Positions 18,949 through 44,305 of a stretch of DNA of 64,000 nucleotides are shown piece by piece; position 1 is the stretch's first letter; every line of letters starts with the position of its first letter. The stretch covers positions 57,890 through 121,889 of the forward strand of contig CAUPTB010000001.1 in NCBI GenBank assembly GCA_963514625.1, written 5' to 3'. The position numbers were made by a program, and so were the translations under genes. A model generated the notes under the pieces. That model ran no database searches. It was given only the letters and a program-made list of their open reading frames with translations, and was not told the origin of the DNA. Source of the DNA: an uncultured Candidatus Saccharibacteria bacterium (GTDB lineage: Bacteria; Patescibacteriota; Saccharimonadia; Saccharimonadales; Saccharimonadaceae).

Positions 18949-19203
18949 GGTAATTTTCTCGGCGGTTTTTATGTGGTGGGTTGCGTGAATCAGTGTGGCT
19001 GATATGTCATGCCTCGGGTATGTTGCGTAAGGAGAAAATCTTGGTCACACTTGCACCCTTTATTACATACCGCATTTCCCAATCCAAAGACTGACACTCG
19101 TGTGTGAAACGGGAAATTCGCTATGCGAGGGGATCTTAGAGGGATGCAAATCCGTTAGGATTTGTAACGAAAAGTTGCTCACCCAGCGGTGGGCTGACTT
19201 TTC

Positions 19204-19436
19204 GTTATAGTTCCCTGACAATTTGGATAGTTGTATAATCACACTATTATAGTACCTCACCCCGCCCGTGTTATAGTTCCCTGACAATTTGGATAGTTGT
19301 ATAATCAGTCTTGGGGACGAATACCAGGGCGAGAAGTTATAGTTCCCTGACAATTTGGATAGTTGTATAATCAGCAAAGCTATGCCCGGCCAGCCCGACT
19401 GTTATAGTTCCCTGACAATTTGGATAGTTGTATAAT
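19204..19436 (+). CRISPR. CRISPR array, 4 repeats and 3 spacers (type II-C)
   Basis: The 36-nt repeat GTTATAGTTCCCTGACAATTTGGATAGTTGTATAAT occurs at 19204, 19270, 19336 and 19401. Spacers are 30, 30 and 29 nt. The strand is assigned from the GTT...AAT repeat polarity and from tracrRNA complementarity. Confidence 0.95.
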
Positions 19437-19444
19437 ACTCACTC

Positions 19445-19473
19445 AAAATCCCCTCTGTTACAGAGGGGATTTT
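19445..19473. terminator. Bidirectional intrinsic terminator between the CRISPR array and cas2
   Basis: Perfect palindrome AAAATCCCCTCTG-TTA-CAGAGGGGATTTT with U tracts on both strands. The cas2 stop is at 19477. Confidence 0.8.
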
Positions 19474-19476
19474 AGT

Positions 19477-19806
19477 TTAGAAAAATGATAGTTGGTTGGC
19501 TTTAACGAGTTCTTCTTGGTCAGTTTTCTCGCCTAGGATGATGAACATAGTAGCGAACTGACGCTCGGTGACGAGAAGCGCCCGGATAGAGCCTTTGGTA
19601 TCCGCTGGTGTATTTTTAGTGACTCTGGTGAGATGCTTCATGGCTACGTCTCGATTAGGGCACAGCCTGCTGTAGACGCTGAATTGGAGCATATCAAAGC
19701 CATCCCCAACTAAAAAGTTGCGGAATTGACTAGCTTGCTTGCGCTCAGCTTTCGTTCCTGTGGGCAAATCAAATAGTACCAACACACGCATATAACGGTA
19801 GCTCAT
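19477..19806 (-). CDS. cas2: CRISPR-associated endoribonuclease Cas2
   Basis: MSYRYMRVLVLFDLPT is a typical type II Cas2 N-terminus. The ORF-track N-terminal extension overlaps cas1 and was discarded. Confidence 0.9.
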   Translation of the reverse strand: MSYRYMRVLVLFDLPTGTKAERKQASQFRNFLVGDGFDMLQFSVYSRLCPNRDVAMKHLTRVTKNTPADTKGSIRALLVTERQFATMFIILGEKTDQEELVKANQLSFF

Positions 19807-19819
19807 GATTAAGATTAAC

Positions 19820-20716
19820 TTAGCGATTAAACTTGGGCAATTGAAGCGAGTCGGGTGACTTGTCGCCAATAGCCTGCACTAGGCTGCTGACGGTTAAGTC
19901 TATGGCGTCTCGTACTGTAAACTGCTTATCTTTGATAATAGCATAATCATTGAGAATGTCAAGGGACGACCGCCGATCTTCTTTAGTTAGTCTGCTGTCA
20001 CTCAAGTCTAAGCGCTGGTCGGCCAATTTTGACAAGACAAAGTGGTCAACTATTGCCCTATAGGGTTCAATCAGATCATCGGCTAAGTTAAAGCTATTCA
20101 GCTCGCTATGGTGAAAGAGCCCTAGCGATGGGATGAGTCCTCGACTAGCGATATGTCTGGCAACTAAGCTGCGGACGATAGCATATGAATAGTTAAGTGC
20201 TGAATTATACCAGGTCGGCTGGCGTCTGGTGGCATCCGCCAGTAGAGTGTCGAAATATATACGGGCAGCGATAGACTCTCGATTAGTGGTATCACCACTG
20301 CGAACCTCGGTGGCTAGCTTGATGAGCTGTCCAGCTTGCTCAGTATGTCTAAATGCGGTCAGGACCTGGGCTTGGTTAATGATCTTCTGCTTGACGATAG
20401 CCTGCCATAGATTCTTACGCAGTGGCTGAGACATCTCTAGCTGCATGCGGGATACTTTGGCTTGGCGAGAGTGCTGTGACAATGGTTCAATTACTGAGCA
20501 GGGCGTATGCTGGTGGTCGCAAATGATGGTCGTGACATTATGTGTGGCAAGTTCGCCGAGGAGATTGGCGGTCATGGTCACGGCGTAGCTATCGATAAGT
20601 AGCGTATCGATATCTTCTATCGGTAGCTTAGCACTCTTGTCACCCTTGATGACCAAACTCCCCTGTTCCAGGCTTAGATGAGCCTGGTTCTCTATAGCTA
20701 CAACTCGCCACCCCAT
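19820..20716 (-). CDS. cas1: CRISPR-associated endonuclease Cas1
   Basis: About 298 aa between cas9 and cas2 with type II Cas1-like sequence. The start is set at MGWRVVAIEN (ATG 20716), just after the cas9 stop. Confidence 0.9.
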   Translation of the reverse strand: MGWRVVAIENQAHLSLEQGSLVIKGDKSAKLPIEDIDTLLIDSYAVTMTANLLGELATHNVTTIICDHQHTPCSVIEPLSQHSRQAKVSRMQLEMSQPLRKNLWQAIVKQKIINQAQVLTAFRHTEQAGQLIKLATEVRSGDTTNRESIAARIYFDTLLADATRRQPTWYNSALNYSYAIVRSLVARHIASRGLIPSLGLFHHSELNSFNLADDLIEPYRAIVDHFVLSKLADQRLDLSDSRLTKEDRRSSLDILNDYAIIKDKQFTVRDAIDLTVSSLVQAIGDKSPDSLQLPKFNR

Positions 20717-20726
20717 AGTCTCTAAT

Positions 20727-23700
20727 CTAATCCCACTTATAGTTATCACCTAGGACGTTGATGTCGAGGCGTTCTATGAGAGAAGCGGAGCGAGGTGAGA
20801 TTTGTATTAATGAGTCAGCTTCTTTGCTGGCGGCGTATTGTTTCATAACCTGCATGGCACCATTATTGACGTTAAAGCTCGTATAATATCCCTCTTTGAT
20901 TTTATTGCCAAAATAGCACCTCACATAATCATTCGGATACAGTGAACACACTTTGGTGAATGTTTCGTCGATGTCAGTAAATCCTTTGGGCGCCGGTAAA
21001 ATCTTTGTCGGCGCAGGCTTATTTTTGCCGACTTGATGTGCGTAAACCGGTACAAAGAAGTGCTCGATCTTCCCTTTCTTATTTGGTCTTCGATATACGT
21101 CAAGTCGCACCATAGATCCGTTATTGACGAATGCTTTGCCTTTATTAATGAAGAAGCCGCTTGGTTGTGTTGAGTATACTTTGATGGTTGAGACCGGCGA
21201 TAGTTGTTTGCCGTTTTTGTCGTATTTTTTATCATTCTTGTAAATAGGTTCGGCGAAAGCTTTTTCGGGGTTGTCATCATGGTTATCCAGTCTTTCAAGT
21301 AGTTTATCGTACAGCCATTGATCAGATTCCTTTAGTACAGAATTCTCGACATCCTTTCGCTTTACTTTACTTAGTGGCATCCGTACAGTTCGCTGGTCAC
21401 CGTCTTTAGCCTTTGGTGAGCGGATAGTATCTTTGTGTGCTCGTGCGGTGGCTTTGCGTCGTGGCATGCGTGAAACGAAGATCGGCTTTACGCTCAGCCT
21501 GAACTCATCATCATAATTATCAAGTCCACGCAATTCATTTTGCAGTGTTGCGATATCGGTATTAAGGGTGCGTTTCATCACCTCCTTGCTAAAGTCCGAC
21601 CACGGCTGAGGAAAATGATTCTTAGTCTCTTCATCGCTGCGAAGCTTGAAATATTCAGCCTCAGCCAAGTCCTTTTGAGCTTTTAAGAATGCGTCTTCAT
21701 CGGTAATCTCACCGGTATCTTTATCGGTAGACTGCAATAAGATTTGTCGTTTCTTGTCAATCGTATTTGCGTTGACCAGATACTGCTCCATTTCCTGTTC
21801 TTTGGAGAAGAGATTTGCCTGATAGACAATCCTCATGTCGATCGCCGCTACGACCGCTGCATCTTTGGCGTGATGTAAGACATCGTCGGTGCGATCCTTG
21901 GCAAGCCCCCAACGCTTACGCAAGTATGCAGTGGTCGTACCGTTCGGTGCAACGACGCGCTGTTTCTCTTCGCCCTCGGCAAAATCAACCATCTGACTCA
22001 AGTAATTCTGGACGAATCGTGTGATGTATCGTGTGTCGTTCAAGGCACGCACGTTCCAGCTATCATTCTTGTAGACTTGCAGGAGCAGATTTTGCTTCTT
22101 TCTCATGGCATAGCCGTTATATTTGTAGTTGGCGACATTGGTAGCCTTGTCTGCTGTCTTGACATCACGTGTTTTATAGATTGCCTCGACACGTGCTGCG
22201 TATTCTTTCCATCGTTGATCATCGGCACCGAAGTATTCAAAAGGAGTTTTATTGCTCTTCTTCTGATTTTCTTCTGTCAATACCAGAACCTTATTGGCCA
22301 TGCCGTCGTTATTGGAGCGTGAGAACGGTACGATGTGGTCTATCTGATAGGCATTGTCATCACGGAGCATCGTCTCGAAGTCAATCGGCTTTCCGGAGTA
22401 TAAGCAAACGCCATTTTGTTCGCGGTAGAGCTCAACTTTAATAATCTGCTGACCGGTTGGAGTTATGATATTGTTTTCATTCAGTGTCTGAATAATACTC
22501 TGGTTGTGCGCTTGATTTTCCTTATTTTCATTTTCGATTGCCTTGCGGTCTTTGAAATTCTTTGCTAGGTCACGAGCAGTCTCAACCTTGATAAAGTATG
22601 GCTTGCCGTATTTGCGTTCAATAGCACGAACGACTTTCAATGTCTGAGTGATAGCACGTTTGACGACAGGGTTGGTAATCTGCTCTAGGCTGACGGATTG
22701 CTTTTTGAAGTCGTAGCCAGCTGCCTCGCAGGCTTTGTCGTAAGTCATACCTTCGAGAAGGTTTTTCGTGATTTTCTGCAGAGCCTTAATCGATAGATGA
22801 CCAAATGCTTTGAAGTTAGTCGGCTTGATTCGGATGATAGCCTCCTTAGCTTTGTCGGAGAGTGGTAGTTGATTTAGCTCGGTGCGAATACCTTGATCGG
22901 CTTTTTGTGTAGTTAGAATATAGGCAACTTGGTTGATCATCGTCTCGTTATCAATCTTTGCCCAGTCTTCCGGCAGATCTTTTAGTGCCGATCTGATGTC
23001 GCTATATGCTTTTAGTCCGCCAAAGGTGTTACCTTCACCGAACTCGTCGCCGTCTTTTTTCTTACCACGCACATCCTTCGGCACGTAATCATCGCTAATT
23101 CCTGCTATGCTACGTACCTTTTTATACGTTAGCCCCTTTTGATTCTTGGCTGCATCAATGACCTTTCTGATTTGTTCCGATGATAATTTGATTTCTAAAT
23201 TCTCTCGTTTAGCCTGGCGCTTGCTGGCGTTGCGGGGAATGAAAACTAGGTGTGATAAATCACTTGCCAGGCGAAATACCTCGAAACTGTAGCTGGCTTT
23301 CGGAGCGCGCTTCTCGCCTTTCTCAAACGTACATTCACCGACCATCTTTTCGATCAGTTCCTTGGTCATGAATGGACGTTGGTACATGATAGCGTTCACG
23401 TTGGTAACCTGTCCGTCGTTGATACCGTAGACCAACTCGTTGATAGCCTGCTCCGAGACATCCTTTAGAGCGTAATTCCGCTGAGCCCTGATAATGGCTT
23501 CCAGTTCACGCAGAAAGTCGTTGCGAGCAAAGCTATTAGTATAGTTGTCTCGTTTATTGCGTTTATGCGGGGCAAATTTTTCGTCGTGATTGAGGGCGTC
23601 ACCGACGGTGGCGTAGCCATTCTCAGTCAGGAATTTTTCGTTGGTTTTGAGGGCGCTGGTCACACGACCGTCCTCCTTGTCTGATTCCTCTACCACCTTG

Positions 23701-24101
23701 CGGTTAGACTTGAAACCACGTCGTTTGGCGATCTGATATATGACTTTGAGCAGCTCCTCGGGTGTTAATTCTTCGGTGAGCGCTTTTGATCGTAAAGCAT
23801 AAACGTCCAGCTTATTGTAATCGGATTCAGGATCTAATACTTCTTCAACTTGATCTTTGGTGAGGATGTTTTGGTCGATGAAGAATTGCTTGAGATGATT
23901 GAGGCGTTGACGACGACGCTTCAGTCGACGACGAGCCGATCGTGCATCACGTCGAGGCTTAGCTAGTGAATCGCCATTCTGCGGGTCTTCCGGCCGCTCA
24001 AAGATTCTTACTCCCAGGTCGTGAATCCGTTCCTTTTCTAAGTCAAGCACTGCCCAGCCTACTGAGCTGGTGCCGATATCCAGTCCAAGTGAATATTTCA
24101 T
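20727..24101 (-). CDS. cas9: Cas9 (type II-C size class, 1124 aa)
   Basis: RuvC-I MKYSLGLDIGTSSVGWAVL; Arg-rich bridge helix RRDARSARRRLKRRRQRL; RuvC-II IKVETARDL; HNH YQIDHIVPFSRSNNDGMANKVLVLTEENQKKSNKTP; RuvC-III HHAKDAAVVA. No csn2 or cas4 is present. Confidence 0.95.
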   Translation of the reverse strand: MKYSLGLDIGTSSVGWAVLDLEKERIHDLGVRIFERPEDPQNGDSLAKPRRDARSARRRLKRRRQRLNHLKQFFIDQNILTKDQVEEVLDPESDYNKLDVYALRSKALTEELTPEELLKVIYQIAKRRGFKSNRKVVEESDKEDGRVTSALKTNEKFLTENGYATVGDALNHDEKFAPHKRNKRDNYTNSFARNDFLRELEAIIRAQRNYALKDVSEQAINELVYGINDGQVTNVNAIMYQRPFMTKELIEKMVGECTFEKGEKRAPKASYSFEVFRLASDLSHLVFIPRNASKRQAKRENLEIKLSSEQIRKVIDAAKNQKGLTYKKVRSIAGISDDYVPKDVRGKKKDGDEFGEGNTFGGLKAYSDIRSALKDLPEDWAKIDNETMINQVAYILTTQKADQGIRTELNQLPLSDKAKEAIIRIKPTNFKAFGHLSIKALQKITKNLLEGMTYDKACEAAGYDFKKQSVSLEQITNPVVKRAITQTLKVVRAIERKYGKPYFIKVETARDLAKNFKDRKAIENENKENQAHNQSIIQTLNENNIITPTGQQIIKVELYREQNGVCLYSGKPIDFETMLRDDNAYQIDHIVPFSRSNNDGMANKVLVLTEENQKKSNKTPFEYFGADDQRWKEYAARVEAIYKTRDVKTADKATNVANYKYNGYAMRKKQNLLLQVYKNDSWNVRALNDTRYITRFVQNYLSQMVDFAEGEEKQRVVAPNGTTTAYLRKRWGLAKDRTDDVLHHAKDAAVVAAIDMRIVYQANLFSKEQEMEQYLVNANTIDKKRQILLQSTDKDTGEITDEDAFLKAQKDLAEAEYFKLRSDEETKNHFPQPWSDFSKEVMKRTLNTDIATLQNELRGLDNYDDEFRLSVKPIFVSRMPRRKATARAHKDTIRSPKAKDGDQRTVRMPLSKVKRKDVENSVLKESDQWLYDKLLERLDNHDDNPEKAFAEPIYKNDKKYDKNGKQLSPVSTIKVYSTQPSGFFINKGKAFVNNGSMVRLDVYRRPNKKGKIEHFFVPVYAHQVGKNKPAPTKILPAPKGFTDIDETFTKVCSLYPNDYVRCYFGNKIKEGYYTSFNVNNGAMQVMKQYAASKEADSLIQISPRSASLIERLDINVLGDNYKWD

Positions 24102-24149
24102 AACGTCATTATAACCTTTTCCGGTTATGTGGTACATAGGTGCAAATAG

Positions 24150-24276
24150 ACAAAGACACACAAAGATAATCCGCCTCACGAGGAGACGGAATTACTTTGC
24201 TTTAGTATTTCTACTAAATTATTATAGAAACCTAAGCAATTCAGATAGTTATACAATCATGCTCCCATGAGTGTAC
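24150..24276 (-). ncRNA. Predicted tracrRNA
   Basis: The anti-repeat at 24221-24257 (minus strand) is complementary to the plus-strand repeat transcript. It is followed by the hairpins UUUAGUA-GAAA-UACUAAA and CCGUCUC-CUCGU-GAGGCGG (24171-24189) and a U-rich tail. The promoter lies immediately upstream. The ends are approximate. Confidence 0.7.
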
Positions 24277-24282
24277 ATTCTC

Positions 24283-24310
24283 ATTATAGAGTATCAAGGC
24301 CGGATTGCAA
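24283..24310 (-). promoter_or_regulatory. Sigma70-type promoter for the tracrRNA
   Basis: On the minus strand: TTGCAA (24310-24305), a 16-nt spacer, then TATAAT (24288-24283). Confidence 0.6.
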
Positions 24311-24756
24311 TAGCCGAGTGTCTTCTCGGGTTGGTCGGTGCTTATCGGTATCATGCCGGGCTTGCCCAGCACCCAGCGGGATGCATGATGCTCTGCTGTC
24401 CAGGCGAAAAGGTGCACAGTCATGTTTTGTCATAGTCAGCTAGCTTAGCTAACGCATCAGCTGGGCTGTCGGGCCTGCCCAGCTGATGCTAGTGAAATCA
24501 ACTTGCCATGATAAGTGTGATTACGCAACTTTCTTACTTGAGCGAGCATAGCACTAAGTATCCTGCTGGCTTTACTTTCCTGTCAAATGTGTCATGATAG
24601 TAGTGCTGTAGGTGGGTGCGGTGTACTTTATGATGAAGTGGATGGATGTGTCTGTGGTCTCGCCGGGTGCAGGTCTCTCCTGCTCCCCGTGAGGTCGCAG
24701 ACAGGCTGTGACCAAAACCGATGGCGTCGATAGATGTCATCAGAGAGGAGGCCGAC

Positions 24757-25795: not shown

Positions 25796-28726
25796 CTAAT
25801 GAAACCTGATCTCGTGAACTTGGGCGGCGGGTGGTGCTACCGAGGCCGGCTTATCCGGCTTGGCGGGCTGGCTTGGGTGCGGCTGAGGCAAGGGGCGATT
25901 CGGTCTGACGTAGCTGGTCGGTGAGCTTGGCTGGCTAACGGGAGCTGCGGGAGTCGGCTGGCTGGTCTGACCGCCTTTATCCGCCCCACGATTATGTTTG
26001 TTGGTTTTATTCTTATTTTTCTTGGGCTGATTCTTATTGCCTTGATTCTGACCGCCCCGACCACCCTGTCCTGCCTGATTACTACCGGAACGAGCCTTAT
26101 TGCTACCACCGCCACCGTTGCTATTGCCACTACTCTTACTGCTAGTTTCGTGAGTCGGCTCAATCTTCATGCTATCAGGGTCGCCAGCTTGGGCGGTCTG
26201 ACGGATCTGCGCCATCAGGCTGCTGATATTCTTCAGCTGGTTGGCGGTTGACTGAGCGGCGGCTTGCTGCTGCTCTTTTAGTGCTTTCTTCGCCTTGTCT
26301 CGGGCGGTTCTGGACATTAGCCCCATCGGTGGAGTGACCAGCTCGGCAATCTCTACCTCCACCTCCGCTTTGGGACGGGTGTAATTAGCCCTGGAGTGCT
26401 CGATGATTTGGTCGATGTAGCCCTTCCCCGCTTCCGGTAGCTTGAGGGTAGTGCCCGAGAAAGCAGGCATCTTCTCGCCGTTGATCATCATGCCGCAGAC
26501 GAGATGGCGATTATTCATCTGTAAGATGTCCTGCGCTTCGAAATTGGGGGCGAATTGCTGGGCTAAGATTGGTGCATCCTCCGGGCTGACTCGCATTGAG
26601 ACCATAGTGCCGACATTACCAAAGACAGCGTCTCGTACGGTATCTTCCATCTGAGAAATGTATTGGTTGGCGACGGTGAGGTTGAGTCCGTACTTACGAG
26701 CCTCGGACAAGATTACGGCGAAAGAGTCGGTGGCGAAGTTCTGAAACTCGTCGACGTATAGGTAAAAAGGTCGCCGATCTTCTATACGAGGGATATCCGA
26801 GCGACTCATGGCGGCTAACTGGATCTTGGTTACCAAGAAAGAGCCCAGAATGGCGGCGTTGTCTTCACCGATCAATCCCTTGGATAAATTAACGATCAGG
26901 ATCTTACCCTCGTCCATGATCTGGCGGATATTGAAGCTAGACTTGGGCTGTCCGATGATATTGCGGATGACCGGGTTAGCAACGAAAGCACCGACCTTAT
27001 TAAGCACTGGGGCAATCGCCTCTGAGACATAGCGCTCGTTCCAGCCGGCGAATTCGACTCGCCAAAATTGGAGCACCACGGTATCTTTGACTTGAGATAG
27101 CACCCGACTGCGGAAATCCTTATCGGTTAGCATGCGGTTGATATCCAGCATGGTGGTGTCGGGGTACTCCAGTAGAGCGAGCAGGGTGTGACGCAAGATA
27201 TACTCTAGTCGTGGACCCCAGCTCTCGCCGAACATCCGCTTCATCACCCCGATGATCTCTGAGCTGATATTATTGCGTTGATTCGGGTCGTAGACCTCCA
27301 TTGGGTTAAAGCCGATCGGGTGGTCGGTGTCGGCGGGGTTAAAGTAGACTACGTCATTAACTCGTGTCGGCGGGATAAACTTGAGGTTGTCAGTGGCGAA
27401 GTCGCCGTGTGGGTCAATGATGGCGTAGCCTTGGTTGTGGTAGATATCTGATAAGGCTAGTAGCTCAAGCAGACCAGATTTACCTGTACCGGTCTGTCCG
27501 ATGATGTACATATGACGGCTTCGGTCAGCTCGCAAGATGCCGAACTGCTTCTGCATACCTCGGAAGTTAGTCAGCCCGAAAGCACTGATATCTCGGTCGT
27601 GAACCGGGTCGCCATCAAGTACCGGCAGATTAGTCGGCGGCTCGGCGGTCTTAGAATTAGCCCAGACTACGCTAGGCGTCTCGACGTTCATGTGCGGTAG
27701 ATGAAAGACGCTGGCCAGCTCCTCAATATTTAAGATAAAGCCTGTGCCATCCGGGAAAGATCGCTTGGCGCAGAGGTCAAGCGCCGCCCGATCGTAGCGA
27801 GGCTGAGTAGCCAGCTTGAAGCCATTAAGGCTGGTCGAGTTAAACTGCTTAAAGGCACTCGCCACGGCATTCATCTGGATGCGAGCCGAGTCTTGGTCAT
27901 GTCCGAGGTAAGCTAGCCTGATGCAGACCTTGTAGCCCAGCTTCTGCGATTTCTTCTCCATCTCGCTAATCCGGAGCTTGTCACGGTCGGATAGCTCGGT
28001 ATTTTTGTCGTTCCCTTCAGGCGGCTGCCAGAGCGCCTCCAGTGCCTGGAGGACGTAGTAGAAAGCGCCCGAGCGGAGTGACGAGCCAAAGCCGCTACGA
28101 TAACGAGCGACGTACTTGGCACTATCTTTCTGCCAGCTATCCGGTATGGGTCGGACGAGGATCTGCACCCAGATCTCCTCGTCGTTGCTGCCCAGCTTGG
28201 TCAAGGCGGCAGTGATACCGGCTAATGGGTCAACGTCGAACGCCTGGAAAGTTCGGATGGGTAAGAATTCGTTATCGGTCAGGACCAGCTCATCAACTGC
28301 CGTGGCTCGGTGAGCATTGATACCGTCGGCGTAATCTTCCTCAGCCGGCTGGATCTGGACGGTCGGATACTGGGCGTAGATTTGCCCTTCGACGAAGTTC
28401 TGCAGATGCTTAGGGGTGCGGACGTAGAAGCGGATCTGACCGCCCACACTGGCGATCTCAAACGAGAGGTGCTCCTGAACGCCGGTGGCCCGGTGGAGCT
28501 CCTGCTTGTCGCGGAGGATGCCGTGCAAGGAAGCGAAGAGTTGTTCGGCAGAGAGCTCTTTCTTGTCGTTATCTCGAGGGATTTCTAGAGCCAGGAGGAC
28601 GTAGTCGTAAGCATCGCCGGGGTCGTTAAGGCTATGATAGTTGCGCCAGGTCAAGATGCCGAGAATGCCGACGAGAGGCATCCATATGTACCACTGAGTA
28701 AAGAAGGTAAACAGCCACTGTATCAT
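25796..28726 (-). CDS. Type IV secretion coupling-protein-like / HerA-FtsK-type ATPase with a long low-complexity C-terminal tail
   Basis: N-terminal TM. Walker A IIGQTGTGKSG and Walker B FYLYVDEFQNF. The roughly 170-aa C-terminus is G/N/Q/K- then P-rich. ATG at 28726. Confidence 0.7.
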   Translation of the reverse strand: MIQWLFTFFTQWYIWMPLVGILGILTWRNYHSLNDPGDAYDYVLLALEIPRDNDKKELSAEQLFASLHGILRDKQELHRATGVQEHLSFEIASVGGQIRFYVRTPKHLQNFVEGQIYAQYPTVQIQPAEEDYADGINAHRATAVDELVLTDNEFLPIRTFQAFDVDPLAGITAALTKLGSNDEEIWVQILVRPIPDSWQKDSAKYVARYRSGFGSSLRSGAFYYVLQALEALWQPPEGNDKNTELSDRDKLRISEMEKKSQKLGYKVCIRLAYLGHDQDSARIQMNAVASAFKQFNSTSLNGFKLATQPRYDRAALDLCAKRSFPDGTGFILNIEELASVFHLPHMNVETPSVVWANSKTAEPPTNLPVLDGDPVHDRDISAFGLTNFRGMQKQFGILRADRSRHMYIIGQTGTGKSGLLELLALSDIYHNQGYAIIDPHGDFATDNLKFIPPTRVNDVVYFNPADTDHPIGFNPMEVYDPNQRNNISSEIIGVMKRMFGESWGPRLEYILRHTLLALLEYPDTTMLDINRMLTDKDFRSRVLSQVKDTVVLQFWRVEFAGWNERYVSEAIAPVLNKVGAFVANPVIRNIIGQPKSSFNIRQIMDEGKILIVNLSKGLIGEDNAAILGSFLVTKIQLAAMSRSDIPRIEDRRPFYLYVDEFQNFATDSFAVILSEARKYGLNLTVANQYISQMEDTVRDAVFGNVGTMVSMRVSPEDAPILAQQFAPNFEAQDILQMNNRHLVCGMMINGEKMPAFSGTTLKLPEAGKGYIDQIIEHSRANYTRPKAEVEVEIAELVTPPMGLMSRTARDKAKKALKEQQQAAAQSTANQLKNISSLMAQIRQTAQAGDPDSMKIEPTHETSSKSSGNSNGGGGSNKARSGSNQAGQGGRGGQNQGNKNQPKKNKNKTNKHNRGADKGGQTSQPTPAAPVSQPSSPTSYVRPNRPLPQPHPSQPAKPDKPASVAPPAAQVHEIRFH

Positions 28727-28783
28727 CACCAGTTATCTTACCATATTTAGCGGGCGAATGTTTTAGGCTTGTACTAGTTCGCT

Positions 28784-40833: not shown

Positions 40834-42894
40834 TTACCAGCTACCACCGCCTCCTCCACCGACGCCACCGCCGGCAAAACCTCCGCCACCGCCGATGGCG
40901 GTGCCACCGGAGGGGGTAGCCCCCATGCTGGTAGCCAGGGCGGGCATACCATGATCCATGAAGCTGACTACGCTGGCGTAATTGTACGCTCCGGCTACAT
41001 CGCACCAGTCGGCAGGCTGGACGGCGATACCTTCGAATTGGCTAACCCAAGCCTTGGAGACACCCAGAGCATAGGCGTACGGCAGGATGTGGTAGAAGAG
41101 CTGCGGATCCTGCTCGACCATCGCTTCGATGCGTGGCTTGTCGACCGTCTCGATGAACTCCTTAAAGCCCATGATCTCGCCTTTCAGCTTGTAGCCTGCC
41201 TCGGTACGATGATAGACCGGGCTAGCAATCGCACTGGCGATAGTGATCAAACTGGCTGAGATAGCGCAGCAGACCATCAGCGGGGTGCTATTGAGGTAGT
41301 CACGCCACAAGAAGATAAAGGAATTGACAAATACGAGCGACAGTATAGTCACCCCGACAGCCGACCACTTCTTGCCGTTATTGACCGTTGCGATGCTGCT
41401 GAAAATAATGGCGGATATGACGAAGAGGCTTGCGTAGAGCATATTCTCCTCGACTAAGCCAACCGCAGCGATCACCCCCAGTAGAATGCCGATGAGAAGG
41501 GCGACGAAAGCGCAGATCTTAACGATCAGCAATTTAGCCCGTAGAGGGTCTTTCTCGCCGAAATAGCGCTTCTTGACCTCGCTGTCCTTACCGGCGCTGA
41601 TAATGGCGTTGACGGTGGTGTAAAACTGATTGGTCAGCTGCTTGCTGGTGACACTGTCGGGATGCTTACTATTAAACAGCCCCGCCATGAACTCTTTCTC
41701 CGCTTCATTTTTACCGTCGTAATCCTTGAGCTTGGTCAGCGTGAAGTCACGCTTCGCCTTCTTGTCCTTGGTGCTGATCTTGATATAGCCTTTGTCGGCT
41801 AGGTAAATCAGGAGCGAGACGACGTCTTGGCTGATGTTGACACCTCGATCGACCAGAGCTACCTCGAGACTATTTAGTCCGGCTGGCGGTTTGTACTGCA
41901 CCACTGGCGTTACCTTGTAGCGCTCTTGGCGGCGCTTGATGATAGCGATGATGAAGTAAGCTGCGCTGACCAATACCATCAGAATCATACCGATGACCCC
42001 TAGGGCGTCTCGGCTATGGTCAATCTCGAAGTAGCCATCCGGCAAAGTCAGTCGGATGGTCAGGGCTTCTCTCGGGTTGAGCGCCTCAGTAGTCTCACCG
42101 ATAATGCTATCACCCGAGATGGCGTACCTGCCGATATTGGTGCCCGAACTACCGTAGTGTCCTGACGAAAAGCCGGGCTTACTGTCAAAACTCTTGGGTA
42201 AGGTGATCTCGAAGGTGACGTGCTGAATCACGGTCTCCCAGTTAGTGCCAATAATATTAAAGTAGAGCTCGTCGGCATTCTCAAGGGTGTCATGACCGAT
42301 ATCATAATCGTAGCTAATCTGATAGGTCTCGTGCTTATCGGCGTTGCGGTGACTATCGCCGAGGCGAATCTTAGTCAGACCGCCCGATCGCTTAGTCTCG
42401 AACTGATGTGTGGGTACTCGGAGGTTGGTAACGATAGCGTTGATTCGGGCGACTGAGCCATCGGATCGCCGTGCGTAGTTGACATTCTGGATACTGCGAA
42501 AGATACCGTGGCGTTGCTGGTTAAAAGTGACCTCGATGGTCTCGTCGATATGATACTTATTATACTTATCGACGCTGACCTTGACGTCGTAGTTATTGAT
42601 GACGTAGGGGTATCTGAGCAGAGTCGGGTCATCTTGGCGGGTGCTGGAGCTGGCGGAGGTGCCGCTATCGGAGCTGAGGTTACTGGAGCGACCACCGGTA
42701 CTAACGGGACTATCACCCTCTTGTCTAGTCGAGACACCGCTTTGGCTGTTCGCCCGCTCAATGACCTGGTTAATCTGGCTATCCAGATTGTCGGCGGGAG
42801 CAGCCTGGGCTGTCAGCCCGGTCGAGGCTAAAACGAGCGTCAAGACGATGACTGACCTGGCTATCGCTCCTAAGATCTTGCGGACTTTGCTCAT
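40834..42894 (-). CDS. DUF2207-like membrane protein, paralog 3 of 3
   Basis: The start is set at MSKVRKILG (ATG 42894, AAGGAGGG upstream). C-terminus GGGGFAGGGVGGGGGGSW. It shares a 41-nt identical stretch with paralog 2 (TCGACCGTCTCGATGAACTCCTTAAAGCCCATGATCTCGCC). Confidence 0.75.
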   Translation of the reverse strand: MSKVRKILGAIARSVIVLTLVLASTGLTAQAAPADNLDSQINQVIERANSQSGVSTRQEGDSPVSTGGRSSNLSSDSGTSASSSTRQDDPTLLRYPYVINNYDVKVSVDKYNKYHIDETIEVTFNQQRHGIFRSIQNVNYARRSDGSVARINAIVTNLRVPTHQFETKRSGGLTKIRLGDSHRNADKHETYQISYDYDIGHDTLENADELYFNIIGTNWETVIQHVTFEITLPKSFDSKPGFSSGHYGSSGTNIGRYAISGDSIIGETTEALNPREALTIRLTLPDGYFEIDHSRDALGVIGMILMVLVSAAYFIIAIIKRRQERYKVTPVVQYKPPAGLNSLEVALVDRGVNISQDVVSLLIYLADKGYIKISTKDKKAKRDFTLTKLKDYDGKNEAEKEFMAGLFNSKHPDSVTSKQLTNQFYTTVNAIISAGKDSEVKKRYFGEKDPLRAKLLIVKICAFVALLIGILLGVIAAVGLVEENMLYASLFVISAIIFSSIATVNNGKKWSAVGVTILSLVFVNSFIFLWRDYLNSTPLMVCCAISASLITIASAIASPVYHRTEAGYKLKGEIMGFKEFIETVDKPRIEAMVEQDPQLFYHILPYAYALGVSKAWVSQFEGIAVQPADWCDVAGAYNYASVVSFMDHGMPALATSMGATPSGGTAIGGGGGFAGGGVGGGGGGSW

Positions 42895-42904
42895 ATTCCC
42901 TCCT

Positions 42905-44305
42905 TCATAGCGCCCTGCGTTTATTGCCGGACTTCTTGTCAATAACCAGTTTACCATTAGCCAGGCGTTCTCGGTTAGCTTTGATCTGCTTCTCATCTCG
43001 GAAGCTGAACTTGATAGCGGTGCCGTTAAAGCCGAAGCTCTCTCGCCAGCAATTCTCTAAGTAACGCTTGTACGACCAGTGAATAAACTTAAGGTTGCTG
43101 CCGTAAATGACAAACCAAGGCGGATTCACGTCGGTTTGGACGGCGTAGCGCAGGCGGGGATGAGTGTTTTTCAGTCCTGCCGGCTTGTGCTTGGCGATGG
43201 CTCGGTGTAGGCAGTCGTTAAGCTGACCGGTCGGGACGGTGCGCCGACGCTCGGCGTCGATAGATAGGATCAGATCGTAGATCTTAGCCACGTTTTGCCC
43301 GGTCGTTGACGAGGTAAAGATGAGCGGTGCCCATGAGGCAAAATCAAAAGTGCGACCGATGCTGGGAGCTAGAGCGTCCCTGGTGTAGGCATCTTTGCCG
43401 ATAACGGAGTCCCATTTACTGACGACTATCACTAAGCCCTTACCGGCGTCGATAATCTGCCCGGCTAACCTGGCGTCAAGCGAGGTGTTGAGCTCATTTA
43501 CATCCATCAATAGCAGGCAAATATCCGCCTCTTCAATGGCGCTGGCAGTGCGGAGGACGCTGAACTGCTCAATCCCCTGCTCCACCCTACCTTTGCGTCG
43601 TACTCCGGCAGTATCAAGCAGCTCAATGGTCTTGCCGTGATAGCGTACTTCGACTCGGTTAATATCCCTCGTGGTGCCGGCGACATTGGCGACGACCGCC
43701 TGCTGTTTACCAGCTAGAGTGTTAAAGAGATATGACTTGCCGGCGTTAGGGCGACCGATCAGGGCAACCTTAATTTGCTCATCGGCTGCTTTAGTGTGGA
43801 CATGAGGAATATGGCTGATGATAAAGCGTTCCAGCCGGTCGATGTGTCGGTTGTGCTCGGCGCTCACCGGGATAATGTCTTTGATGCCGAGGCAGAGATA
43901 ATTCTCCAGAGGAAAATGCTCAGCGATATCAATCTTATTGAGGACTAGCACCACCGGCTTGGTCGAGCGCAGAATCTGCTTGGCTAGCTTACGATCATCA
44001 GCGGTAGCATCCTCGGTCGAGTCCTTGACTAGTAGGATCAGGTCAGCCGAGGTAATAGCATCGGCCACCTGGTCTTGGATACTTGCCTCGAAATCATCAG
44101 TAGGGTCGTCTTTCAGTCCGGCGGTATCGACCAAGACAAAAGACCCCTGCGACCGGTCAATCCGGCGGTAAATTGAGTCACGAGTAGTACCGGCTTCTCT
44201 GGCCACTACAGCATCACGTCGACCAATCAGTCGGTTAAAGAGCGACGACTTGCCGGCATTGGTTCGTCCTACTAGGGCGACGATTGGCAACTTACGACCA
44301 GACAT
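42905..44305 (-). CDS. der: Ribosome-associated GTPase Der (EngA)
   Basis: Two G domains (GRTNAGKSSLFN with DTAG and NKID; GRPNAGKSYLFN with DTAG and SKWD) plus a KH-like C-terminus. Confidence 0.95.
   Translation of the reverse strand: MSGRKLPIVALVGRTNAGKSSLFNRLIGRRDAVVAREAGTTRDSIYRRIDRSQGSFVLVDTAGLKDDPTDDFEASIQDQVADAITSADLILLVKDSTEDATADDRKLAKQILRSTKPVVLVLNKIDIAEHFPLENYLCLGIKDIIPVSAEHNRHIDRLERFIISHIPHVHTKAADEQIKVALIGRPNAGKSYLFNTLAGKQQAVVANVAGTTRDINRVEVRYHGKTIELLDTAGVRRKGRVEQGIEQFSVLRTASAIEEADICLLLMDVNELNTSLDARLAGQIIDAGKGLVIVVSKWDSVIGKDAYTRDALAPSIGRTFDFASWAPLIFTSSTTGQNVAKIYDLILSIDAERRRTVPTGQLNDCLHRAIAKHKPAGLKNTHPRLRYAVQTDVNPPWFVIYGSNLKFIHWSYKRYLENCWRESFGFNGTAIKFSFRDEKQIKANRERLANGKLVIDKKSGNKRRAL

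What the first reader, a model, noticed from the sequence alone, without database searches (positions are those of the whole stretch)
24150..24310. tracrRNA upstream of cas9, with every 3'-half mismatch to the repeat a G:U wobble in one orientation only
The plus-strand sequence at 24221-24257 (ATTATAGAAACCTAAGCAATTCAGATAGTTATACAAT) is a diverged copy of the repeat. Pairing a plus-strand repeat transcript with the minus-strand transcript of this region makes repeat positions 16-36 a continuous 21-bp duplex. The four sequence differences in that stretch all become G:U pairs. In the opposite strand assignment they would be A:C mismatches. A 1-nt bulge and a 3-nt internal loop follow, then 7 more pairs. 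A TTGCAA-16-TATAAT promoter lies upstream. A GAAA-capped hairpin and a terminator-like hairpin with a U-rich tail lie downstream, ending about 50 nt before the cas9 ATG. Together these fix the crRNA strand (plus, convergent with cas) and give a testable sgRNA design.
Basis: seen in the sequence. Interest (0 to 1): 0.7.

Follow-up and report, generated by a model that had tools for sequence, protein, structure and literature searches.

The report
Ordinary tracrRNA of a Saccharibacteria Cas9

Summary
The window holds a type II-C locus: cas9 (24101-20727, minus), cas1, cas2 and four identical 36-nt repeats (19204-19436, plus).

The stretch 24257-24221 (minus) is an anti-repeat. It pairs with 33 of the 36 repeat nucleotides: 7 bp, a 3x3 internal loop, 5 bp, a 1-nt bulge, then 21 bp. 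All six substitutions outside the loop are G:U pairs if the crRNA is plus and the tracrRNA minus. They are A:C mismatches on the opposite strands (-35.0 versus -19.7 kcal/mol).

Thirty-seven related Saccharibacteria loci carry the same element upstream of cas9 on the cas9 strand. In 29 distinct repeat/tracrRNA pairs the duplex cells are 833 Watson-Crick, 94 G:U and 1 mismatch. Five duplex pairs and four tail pairs show compensatory changes. A TTGnnn-16/17-TAnnnT promoter lies 23-25 nt upstream in all 30 distinct loci examined. The tail is conserved: hairpin, GCAAAG, terminator.

The lower-stem architecture matches the GeoCas9 guide RNA. The antisense array with a -10 box in each repeat matches the Neisseria/Campylobacter precedent.

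This is a new member of a known kind. Expression has not been tested. The useful product is an sgRNA design for a candidate-phyla-radiation (CPR) bacterium's Cas9.

The parts
24283..24310 (-). tracrRNA promoter: TTGCAA (24310-24305), 16-nt spacer, TATAAT (24288-24283). An overlapping weaker site, TTGATA-16-TACACT, lies at 24297..24270.
   Evidence: A TTGnnn-16/17-TAnnnT pair sits 23-25 nt upstream of the anti-repeat in all 30 distinct loci, although the spacer sequence is not conserved.
24150..24276 (-). Predicted primary tracrRNA, about 115-127 nt. The 5' end is inferred about 7 nt after the -10 box. The 3' end is inferred within the U-rich tail.
   Evidence: nhmmer profile hit at 24274-24160, E = 2.4e-29. 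Fold of the tail has z = -5.9. The ends are inferred, not measured.
24258..24276 (-). 5' leader with a small hairpin (UCAUG-GGAG-CAUGA) directly before the anti-repeat.
   Evidence: Relatives have a different small hairpin (CCUU-AAGU-AAGG) at the same place.
24221..24257 (-). Anti-repeat AUUGUAUAACUAUCUGAAUUGCUUAGGUUUCUAUAAU. It pairs with repeat positions 36-16 (21 bp), has a bulged C (24236), pairs with positions 15-11 (5 bp), forms the internal loop UUU (24230-24228) opposite repeat UUC, and pairs with positions 7-1 (7 bp).
24201..24218 (-). Tail hairpin 1: UUUAGUA-GAAA-UACUAAA, in the nexus-like position.
   Evidence: The base pair U:A changes to C:G in 7 sequences. Relatives carry structured insertions at its apex.
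24195..24200 (-). Invariant single-stranded linker GCAAAG.
   Evidence: Invariant in all 29 aligned sequences. Also kept in L037, whose Cas9 is only 44% identical.
24150..24190 (-). Terminator hairpin UCCGUCUC-CUCGU-GAGGCGGA (24190-24170) and the U-rich tail UUAUCUUUGUGUGUCUUUGU (24169-24150).
   Evidence: Three stem pairs show compensatory changes across loci.
20727..24101 (-). cas9, 1124 aa from ATG 24101 (MKYSLGLDIGTSSVGW...).
   Evidence: TIGR01865 at 712 bits. HNH and RuvC domains. Closest solved structures are type II-C Cas9s: the 1082-1095-residue entries 8uza, 9ar4 and 8jtj at E about 1e-170, then the 6jdq/8ja0 group at E about 1e-145; species names are from memory.
19820..20749 (-). 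cas1, type II (NMENI) class.
   Evidence: TIGR03639 at 288.7 bits.
19477..19869 (-). cas2. This is the ORF as listed; the true start is probably the ATG near 19807.
   Evidence: TIGR01573 at 78.6 bits.
19450..19468 (.). Bidirectional terminator-like hairpin between cas2 and the array.
   Evidence: both strands. Conserved in all related loci.
19204..19436 (+). CRISPR array: 4 identical 36-nt repeats and 3 spacers (30, 30 and 29 nt). The crRNA sense is the plus strand. Each repeat ends in TATAAT (19234-39, 19300-05, 19366-71, 19431-36), a candidate internal -10 box.
   Evidence: The strand follows from the G:U asymmetry. Internal promoters are inferred by analogy with Neisseria/Campylobacter.

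Best explanation
The stretch from about 24276 to about 24150 on the minus strand is the tracrRNA gene of a type II-C CRISPR-Cas9 system in a Saccharibacteria (TM7) genome.

**Proposed mechanism.**
1. A sigma-70-type promoter (24310-24283) starts a transcript of about 120 nt.
2. Its anti-repeat (24257-24221) pairs with the repeat part of crRNAs made from the plus strand of the array (19204-19436), which runs antisense to the cas operon.
3. Those crRNAs most likely start from the TATAAT box at the end of each repeat, as in Neisseria and Campylobacter. That would leave about 23-24 nt of guide.
4. The tail (GAAA-capped hairpin, GCAAAG linker, terminator hairpin) is the Cas9-binding scaffold and ends transcription about 50-70 nt before cas9.
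5. The crRNA:tracrRNA duplex loads into Cas9 and guides DNA cleavage.

**Shown here:** sequence complementarity, the strand-specific G:U pattern, covariation, and conserved promoter and terminator positions.

**Inferred:** transcription itself, the RNA ends, the internal crRNA promoters, any RNase III processing, and Cas9 binding.

**Derived sgRNA:** N20-24 + GUUAUAGUUCCCUGACAAUUUGGA + GAAA + UCUGAAUUGCUUAGGUUUCUAUAAUAAUUUAGUAGAAAUACUAAAGCAAAGUAAUUCCGUCUCCUCGUGAGGCGGAUUAUCUUU.
For: - **Locus type.** Cas9, type II Cas1 and Cas2 are present with no csn2 or cas4. The array is at 19204-19436.
- **Duplex in the window.** -35.0 kcal/mol for crRNA(+)/tracrRNA(-) against -19.7 for the reverse assignment. 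All six transitions are G:U.
- **Uniqueness.** It is the best non-array pairing site for a minus-strand RNA in the whole window.
- **Related loci.** There are 39 related Saccharibacteria loci. A profile of the element hits exactly once upstream of cas9, on the cas9 strand, in all 37 loci with upstream DNA. This includes one locus whose Cas9 is 44% identical.
- **Orientation across loci.** The duplex energy favours the same orientation in every locus that has both an array and upstream DNA.
- **Consensus structure.** 45 pairs, 99.3% of cells paired, 9 pairs with compensatory changes, 0 of 500 shuffles as good, slid controls 32-46%.
- **Duplex cells.** 833 Watson-Crick, 94 G:U, 1 mismatch, against 95 mismatches on the opposite strands.
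- **Promoter.** Hexamers keep their position in 30 of 30 distinct loci while the spacer sequence varies.
- **Terminator.**
- **Tail fold.** z = -5.9.
- **Known relative.** The lower stem (7 bp with a G1:U wobble, a UUC/UUN 3x3 loop, then CC(C)UGA) matches the published GeoCas9 sgRNA.
- **Precedent.** Antisense arrays with promoters inside the repeats are documented for type II-C.
Against: - There is no expression data of any kind.
- Rfam has no match here, even at E up to 10.
- Duplex energy alone is within reach of chance: 1 of 13 simulated windows reached -36.5 kcal/mol.
- Similarity between the repeat and the anti-repeat could partly reflect common descent or gene conversion rather than RNA pairing. 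The one-sided G:U pattern argues against this as the sole cause.
- The usual 'degenerate last repeat' rule points to the opposite array orientation. The same rule also fails for Neisseria and Campylobacter.
- No protospacer or PAM was found to give an independent strand check.
- In this lineage the repeat end GTTGTATAAT lacks the TGn of an extended -10 box. Most relatives have it (TGGTATAAT or TGATATAAT).
Confidence: 0.9

Rival explanations
1. Opposite polarity: crRNAs come from the minus strand of the array, the same direction as cas9-cas1-cas2, and the tracrRNA is the plus-strand transcript of 24221-24257.
For: Degenerate repeats lie at the cas2-distal end of the arrays in L011, L023, L028, L032 and L036. 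Under the usual leader-proximal acquisition rule, that would make the cas2-proximal end the leader and the minus strand the crRNA strand.
Against: - All 6 wobble pairs in the window and 94 across loci become A:C mismatches.
- The duplex energy is worse in every locus, for example -19.7 versus -35.0 kcal/mol.
- No plus-strand promoter or terminator flanks the anti-repeat.
- The conserved hairpins and U-tract exist only on the minus strand.
- The degenerate-repeat rule is known to give the wrong answer for type II-C arrays of N. meningitidis and C. jejuni (PMC3737331).
Confidence: 0.03
2. Non-functional relic: a degenerate orphan repeat left upstream of cas9, not transcribed into a functional RNA.
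For: tracrRNA genes are thought to derive from degenerate repeats (PMC3737331). The window has no expression data. The window's array is short (3 spacers), so the system could be decaying.
Against: - The element is kept in 37 of 37 loci, with compensatory changes that track repeat changes.
- Only G:U-compatible substitutions are tolerated.
- The promoter hexamers and the terminator keep their positions while the surrounding sequence diverges.
- Cas9 keeps the RuvC Asp (GLDIGT) and the HNH motif (IDHIVP).
- Relatives have arrays of up to 28 repeats, and none of the 321 distinct spacers is shared between loci, which indicates active acquisition.
Confidence: 0.03
3. The element is a tracrRNA and also the 5' part of the cas9 transcription unit in this lineage. 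Read-through of its interrupted U-tract would supply cas9 mRNA, so the terminator acts as a ratio-setting attenuator. This would be additional to, not instead of, the tracrRNA function.
For: - The scan finds no sigma-70-like promoter between the terminator (24170) and the cas9 ATG (24101) in the window.
- Relative L008 has a promoter-like site after its tracrRNA terminator. Relatives of this group also have a much longer gap before cas9 (about 210-380 nt from the anti-repeat, against about 135-157 nt in the window group) and a cleaner U-tract, UUAUCUUUUUU.
- The window-group tail UUAUCUUUGUGUGUC is interrupted by G.
Against: - A perfect TATAAT (24113-24108) sits 6 nt upstream of the cas9 ATG. 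It could give a leaderless cas9 mRNA without any read-through.
- The terminator hairpin is strong: 8 bp, 5 of them G:C.
- Consensus scans miss many real promoters. The same scan missed the tracrRNA promoter of L008.
Confidence: 0.15

Closest known systems
GeoCas9 / ThermoCas9 crRNA:tracrRNA (type II-C, Geobacillus)
   Same: - The best-scoring solved structures are type II-C Cas9 entries of 1082-1095 residues (8uza, 9ar4, 8jtj), at E about 1e-170 over residues 1-773. From memory these are the Geobacillus Cas9s: GeoCas9 is 1087 aa and ThermoCas9 1082 aa.
- The published GeoCas9 sgRNA (PMC12514136) has the same lower duplex: GUCAUAG:CUAUGAU (7 bp with a G1:U wobble), a 3x3 internal loop UUC/UUA, then CCCUGA:UCAGGG.
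- Here the equivalents are GUUAUAG:CUAUAAU, UUC/UUU and CCUGA:UUAGG.
- In both, the anti-repeat is followed by AA and a hairpin.
   Different: - The tail differs. GeoCas9 has a long GC-rich multi-hairpin tail. This RNA has a short AU-rich GAAA hairpin, a GCAAAG linker and one terminator hairpin.
- The host is a CPR (Saccharibacteria) bacterium.
- The position of the tracrRNA gene in the Geobacillus locus was not checked here.
Neisseria meningitidis and Campylobacter jejuni type II-C CRISPR-Cas9 (Zhang et al. 2013; Dugar et al. 2013; Chylinski et al. 2013)
   Same: - cas9-cas1-cas2 only.
- The array is transcribed antisense to the cas operon.
- Promoters are embedded in each repeat.
- The degenerate-repeat rule mispredicts the orientation.
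- Here the repeats end in TATAAT (TGnTATAAT in most relatives), and degenerate repeats lie at the transcription-upstream end.
- A group of solved type II-C Cas9 chains (6jdq, 8ja0 and related; Nme1/Nme2 Cas9 from memory) matches at E about 1e-145.
   Different: - From memory, the Neisseria tracrRNA gene lies between cas9 and cas1. Here it lies upstream of cas9 on the same strand. That is one of the four usual positions listed by Chylinski et al..
- The internal promoters and independence from RNase III are inferred here, not shown.
Rfam tracrRNA family (from memory, built on type II-A sequences)
   Same: The same functional class of RNA.
   Different: No match at the gathering threshold, nor at E up to 10 on 24050-24400. 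It is not a sequence or structure member of that curated family.

Membership tests
tracrRNA (trans-activating crRNA of type II CRISPR-Cas) | Encoded within or next to a cas9-containing locus that has a CRISPR array | tested here: met
   cas9, cas1 and cas2. Array at 19204-19436. The element lies 50-175 nt upstream of cas9.
tracrRNA (trans-activating crRNA of type II CRISPR-Cas) | An anti-repeat able to form an extended duplex with the CRISPR repeat | tested here: met
   33 of 36 repeat nucleotides pair, including a 21-bp uninterrupted stretch, at -35.0 kcal/mol. It is the best non-array site for a minus-strand RNA in the window.
tracrRNA (trans-activating crRNA of type II CRISPR-Cas) | Co-variation of the anti-repeat with the repeat across orthologous loci | tested here: met
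   Five duplex pairs have changes on both sides. Duplex cells are 833 Watson-Crick, 94 G:U and 1 mismatch. None of 500 shuffles reaches the observed value.
tracrRNA (trans-activating crRNA of type II CRISPR-Cas) | Its own promoter and Rho-independent terminator flanking the anti-repeat, the supportive criterion of Chylinski et al. 2013 | tested here: met
   Promoter at 24310..24283 and terminator at 24190..24170. Positions are conserved in 30 of 30 distinct loci. These are predictions only.
tracrRNA (trans-activating crRNA of type II CRISPR-Cas) | A 3' tail with a hairpin or hairpins that bind Cas9 | tested here: inconclusive
   Two conserved hairpins with compensatory changes and an invariant GCAAAG linker. 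Binding to Cas9 cannot be tested here.
tracrRNA (trans-activating crRNA of type II CRISPR-Cas) | Expressed as a small RNA and required for crRNA function with Cas9 | not testable with these tools
   No transcriptome data are available. This needs RNA-seq, Northern blots and cleavage assays.
Type II-C CRISPR-Cas | cas9, cas1 and cas2 only; no csn2 (II-A) or cas4 (II-B) | tested here: met
   Only three ORFs lie between the array and the tracrRNA, and all three are assigned. Saccharibacteria type II-C1 loci have been reported (PMC10746230).
Type II-C CRISPR-Cas | Cas9 of the compact II-C clade | tested here: met
   1124 aa. The best solved relatives are compact type II-C Cas9 chains (8uza, 9ar4, 8jtj at E about 1e-170; 6jdq group at E about 1e-145). 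The 1368-residue Cas9/Csn1 chains (SpCas9 from memory) match only at about 1e-12.
Type II-C CRISPR-Cas | Array transcribed antisense to cas from promoters inside the repeats (Neisseria/Campylobacter subtype behaviour) | tested here: inconclusive
   The strand is supported by the G:U asymmetry. A plus-strand terminator directly precedes the first repeat. Repeats end in TATAAT or TGnTATAAT. Transcription start sites were not measured.
Rfam tracrRNA covariance model | Score at or above the family's gathering threshold | tested here: not met
   No tracrRNA hit at the gathering threshold or at E up to 10.

The most novel reading that the evidence does not exclude
In this particular lineage (the window plus L001-L004, L007, L022, L024 and L026), the dedicated cas9 promoter and 5' UTR seen in sister lineages have been lost. 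The tracrRNA gene would then be the only canonical promoter upstream of cas9. Under this reading, tracrRNA and cas9-cas1-cas2 form one unit whose interrupted-U terminator sets the tracrRNA:Cas9 ratio. The alternative is that cas9 is made from a leaderless mRNA starting at its ATG, since TATAAT lies 6 nt upstream. A 3-codon mini-ORF (ATGACGTTATGA) overlaps the cas9 ATG in an ATGA arrangement.
Probability: 0.2. Interest if true: 0.45.

Novelty: new member of a known kind. Interest (0 to 1): 0.25.

Why it matters
Type II-C loci in Saccharibacteria are already catalogued (PMC10746230). That paper does not mention a tracrRNA, and no paper in the searchable library contains this repeat sequence.

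Fixing the tracrRNA, its strand and its module boundaries gives a ready sgRNA scaffold for a Cas9 native to oral TM7 bacteria. That could help build genetic tools for these hard-to-manipulate epibionts. It would also allow correct orientation of their spacers for phage-host matching, because default orientation rules would reverse-complement them.

The natural 24-nt and 48-nt insertions at the apex of hairpin 1 in close relatives mark a site that tolerates extra RNA. That is useful for scaffold engineering.

Conceptually it adds nothing new to CRISPR biology.

Tried and rejected
1. **Rfam.** No tracrRNA-family match at the gathering threshold or at E up to 10. The hits that did appear (snoRNA, JA04 and others, E 0.8-8) are noise.

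2. **Independent strand check through protospacers and PAM.**
   - I extracted 321 distinct spacers from the related loci.
   - There was no megablast hit in GenBank phages.
   - The three window spacers (24-nt cores) had no exact hit in IMG/VR.
   - The only matches were three imperfect ones (4-5 mismatches) next to the array in L036. Their 3' flanks (CGGTGGAT, GGGGGAAT, ACGTAAAC) give no clear PAM. This check is inconclusive.

3. **Duplex energy as a stand-alone statistic.** I rejected it. Simulated windows reach -26.7 to -36.5 kcal/mol.

4. **A second strong pairing site at 42776-42802 (+), -33.8 kcal/mol, inside a DUF2207 ORF.** I considered it as a second anti-repeat or a source of non-canonical crRNA. 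I judged it to be chance: it falls within the simulated range, and about 0.2 such 14-mer matches are expected over all repeat sub-words.

5. **A second array in L036 downstream DNA.** None was found.

6. **Literature.** No paper holds this repeat. Zhang et al. 2013 (PMC3694421) is not held in the library, so I cited its content through reviews.

7. **Long-form, self-targeting tracrRNA as in S. pyogenes.** I considered this from memory. It is not supported, because the leader is only about 19 nt and contains no repeat-like segment.

Full report
**What is in the window**

Tandem Repeats Finder and a pattern search show four identical 36-nt repeats, GTTATAGTTCCCTGACAATTTGGATAGTTGTATAAT, on the plus strand at 19204-19436. 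The three spacers are 30, 30 and 29 nt long.

Immediately to the right, on the minus strand, lie three ORFs:
- cas2 (19477-19869; TIGR01573).
- cas1 (19820-20749; TIGR03639, the type II NMENI class).
- a 1124-aa Cas9 (20727-24101; TIGR01865 at 712 bits; HNH and RuvC domains).

There is no csn2 or cas4, so the layout is type II-C.

The best-scoring solved structures are type II-C Cas9 chains. Entries 8uza, 9ar4 and 8jtj (1082-1095 residues; the Geobacillus Cas9s, from memory) match at E about 1e-170. The 6jdq/8ja0 group (Nme1/Nme2 Cas9, from memory) matches at E about 1e-145.

The nearest database proteins, and 39 related genomic loci, come from Saccharibacteria (TM7), mostly human-associated MAGs and single-cell genomes. 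Type II-C1 systems have been reported in this phylum, but that paper does not mention a tracrRNA (PMC10746230).

**Checking the observation**

Pairing a plus-strand repeat RNA with the minus-strand transcript gives, from the repeat's 3' end:
- 21 uninterrupted pairs (repeat positions 36-16).
- a bulged C (24236).
- 5 pairs (positions 15-11).
- a 3x3 internal loop (UUC opposite UUU).
- 7 pairs (positions 7-1).

The energy is -35.0 kcal/mol.

The four differences in the 21-bp stretch, at repeat positions 21, 22, 30 and 33, are all G:U. Two more G:U pairs lie at positions 1 and 14. So all six substitutions outside the loop are wobble-compatible in this orientation and A:C mismatches in the other, where the best duplex is only -19.7 kcal/mol.

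Everything else is accurate:
- TTGCAA-16-TATAAT at 24310..24283.
- a GAAA-capped hairpin at 24218-24201.
- a terminator-like hairpin at 24190-24170 with a U-rich tail ending about 49 nt before the cas9 ATG.

**Is it more than chance?**

Duplex energy alone is weak evidence. Thirteen simulated 64-kb sequences gave best random duplexes from -26.7 to -36.5 kcal/mol. The real window has a second site of -33.8 kcal/mol inside an unrelated ORF.

The weight comes from three things:
- the colinear, nearly full-length match to the repeat;
- the position beside cas9;
- above all, comparison with related loci.

**Comparative evidence**

In every related locus that holds both an array and upstream DNA, the repeat pairs best with a site 135-379 nt upstream of cas9. 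The pairing is always stronger for a crRNA antisense to cas9 and a tracrRNA on the cas9 strand.

A sequence profile of the element hits exactly once, upstream of cas9 on the cas9 strand, in all 37 loci with upstream DNA (E from 1e-24 to 1e-37). This includes loci whose arrays fall outside the fetched DNA. It also hits L037, whose Cas9 is only 44% identical, at E = 3e-7.

I joined each locus's repeat to its own tracrRNA and aligned the 29 distinct pairs. The pair counts are:
- 99.3% of 1305 cells paired.
- 9 of 45 pairs with changes on both sides.
- 0 of 500 shuffles as good.
- only 32-46% paired when partners are slid by 1-3 columns.

As an example of covariation, the repeat segment GTT or TTG at positions 27-29 is matched by AAC or CAA in the anti-repeat.

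Within the duplex there are 833 Watson-Crick cells, 94 G:U cells and 1 mismatch. On the opposite strands the same cells give 95 mismatches. Only G:U-compatible substitutions have survived. This is the signature of selection on an RNA duplex of this polarity, and simple descent from a repeat cannot explain it.

The tail shows the same pattern:
- the base of hairpin 1 changes U:A to C:G in 7 sequences;
- the terminator stem has three compensatory pairs;
- GCAAAG is invariant.

L037 keeps the whole plan with different stem sequences: promoter, leader, anti-repeat, hairpin, GCAAAG, terminator.

A TTGnnn-16/17-TAnnnT pair lies 23-25 nt upstream of the anti-repeat in 30 of 30 distinct loci, although the sequence between the hexamers is not conserved.

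**The crRNA strand**

Several further features fit plus-strand crRNAs:
- A plus-strand terminator (19177-19194) sits directly before the first repeat. No external leader promoter can therefore feed the array from that side.
- Every repeat ends in TATAAT. In most relatives the ending is TGGTATAAT or TGATATAAT, a full extended -10 box.
- A conserved bidirectional terminator follows the array.

This is the arrangement established experimentally for the type II-C systems of N. meningitidis and C. jejuni. There, crRNAs start from promoters inside the repeats and the array is antisense to cas (PMC5965381; PMC3737331).

Degenerate repeats in five related arrays lie at the cas2-distal end, which is the upstream end in crRNA sense. 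The usual rule would read that as the opposite orientation. Chylinski et al. report the same mis-prediction for Neisseria and Campylobacter. So this is a family trait, not a contradiction.

**Comparison with known systems**

The published GeoCas9 sgRNA (PMC12514136) has the same lower duplex. It reads GUCAUAG:CUAUGAU (with a G1:U wobble), then a UUC/UUA loop, then CCCUGA:UCAGGG.

Here the equivalents are GUUAUAG:CUAUAAU, UUC/UUU and CCUGA:UUAGG.

The tail is different and shorter. 'Upstream of cas9' is one of the four usual tracrRNA positions. Rfam's curated models give no match.

The element is therefore a new sequence member of a well-known class, not a new kind of thing.

**What did not work**

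An independent strand check through protospacers and PAM failed:
- The 321 spacers from the related loci have no hit in GenBank phages.
- The window's three spacers have no exact core match in IMG/VR.
- Three imperfect self-matches in L036 give no clear PAM.

No paper in the library contains this repeat or describes a Saccharibacteria tracrRNA.

**Side observations**

- In the window's lineage the gap between the tracrRNA terminator and cas9 is short, and the scan finds no sigma-70-like promoter in it.
- A TATAAT lies 6 nt before the cas9 ATG, and a 3-codon mini-ORF overlaps that ATG.
- Sister lineages have a longer gap and an N-terminal extension. In L008 a promoter-like site follows the tracrRNA terminator.
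- Read-through from the tracrRNA promoter, or a leaderless cas9 mRNA, both remain possible.
- Close relatives carry structured 24-nt and 48-nt insertions at the apex of hairpin 1.
- Many database Cas9 models of this clade (1136-1150 aa) start inside the tracrRNA 3' region and are probably over-extended.

**Verdict**

My confidence is about 0.9 that this is a functional tracrRNA of the stated polarity. It is conventional type II-C biology, with practical value as an sgRNA design for a CPR bacterium's Cas9. Interest is low to moderate.

Noticed in passing
L008:5760-5892, L012:5738-5891 (also L009, L011, L013-L016, L027, L029, L032, L033, L035): Close relatives (Cas9 79-86% identical to the window's) carry insertions at the apex of tracrRNA hairpin 1. 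One is a 24-nt insert that forms two small branches. The other is a 48-nt insert whose inner stem shows compensatory changes (CGAU/AUCG, CGAU/GUCG, CGGU/GCCG). The apex of hairpin 1 is evidently free to accept extra RNA.
   Followed up: partly
window 24098-24170 (minus strand): The scan finds no sigma-70-like promoter between the tracrRNA terminator and cas9. A perfect TATAAT (24113-24108) lies 6 nt upstream of the cas9 ATG, which suggests a leaderless mRNA. A mini-ORF ATGACGTTATGA (24109-24098) ends in a TGA that overlaps the cas9 ATG. Sister lineages instead have a Shine-Dalgarno sequence, a 10-aa N-terminal extension and a longer gap, with a promoter-like site after the terminator in L008.
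   Followed up: partly
window 24102-24179 (minus strand): The longest ORF for cas9 starts at GTG 24179, inside the tracrRNA terminator hairpin. Database Cas9 proteins of this clade are called at 1136-1150 aa. These N-terminal extensions overlap the tracrRNA gene and are probably annotation artefacts, since the conserved MKYSLGLDIG start is at 24101.
   Followed up: partly
window 42776-42802 (+), inside ORF 40834-42996 (-): A stretch complementary to repeat positions 7-29 (-33.8 kcal/mol; CTATCCAGATTGTC is one mismatch from the reverse-complemented repeat) lies inside a DUF2207 membrane-protein gene. The mRNA therefore carries a repeat-like segment. It falls within the range of simulated chance matches, so it is probably coincidental. 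Conservation in relatives was not checked.
   Followed up: partly
L011, L023, L028, L032, L036 arrays (for example L023:10672-11530): Degenerate repeats sit at the cas2-distal end of the arrays, which is the upstream end in crRNA sense. No spacer is shared between any two of the loci (321 distinct spacers). This implies that spacers are acquired at the cas2-proximal end, downstream in transcription, as inferred for Neisseria.
   Followed up: partly
L036:13832-14579: Three spacers from the L036 array match DNA 2-2.5 kb beyond the array on the same contig, with 4-5 mismatches each. This may be a resident mobile element related to past targets. The 3' flanks (CGGTGGAT, GGGGGAAT, ACGTAAAC) give no clear PAM.
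   Followed up: partly
window 19177-19194 (+) and 19450-19468 (both strands): A plus-strand terminator-like hairpin ends 9 nt before the first repeat. A conserved bidirectional terminator hairpin (CCCCTCTG-TTA-CAGAGGGG) separates the array from cas2. Both are conserved in the window's lineage.
   Followed up: partly
window 24270-24297 (minus strand): A second, weaker promoter-like site (TTGATA-16-TACACT) overlaps the main tracrRNA promoter. It would give a transcript starting about 6 nt before the anti-repeat, so two tracrRNA 5' ends are possible.
   Followed up: no
window 24311-24720: About 400 nt of GC-richer intergenic DNA lies upstream of the tracrRNA promoter. It has no ORF of 80 aa or more and no Rfam hit. 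A hairpin CCGAG-AAGACA-CUCGG lies directly before the -35 box. Its function is unknown. Neighbouring genes include an Hsp20 and a TrwB/TraG-like coupling protein (25796-28729).
   Followed up: no
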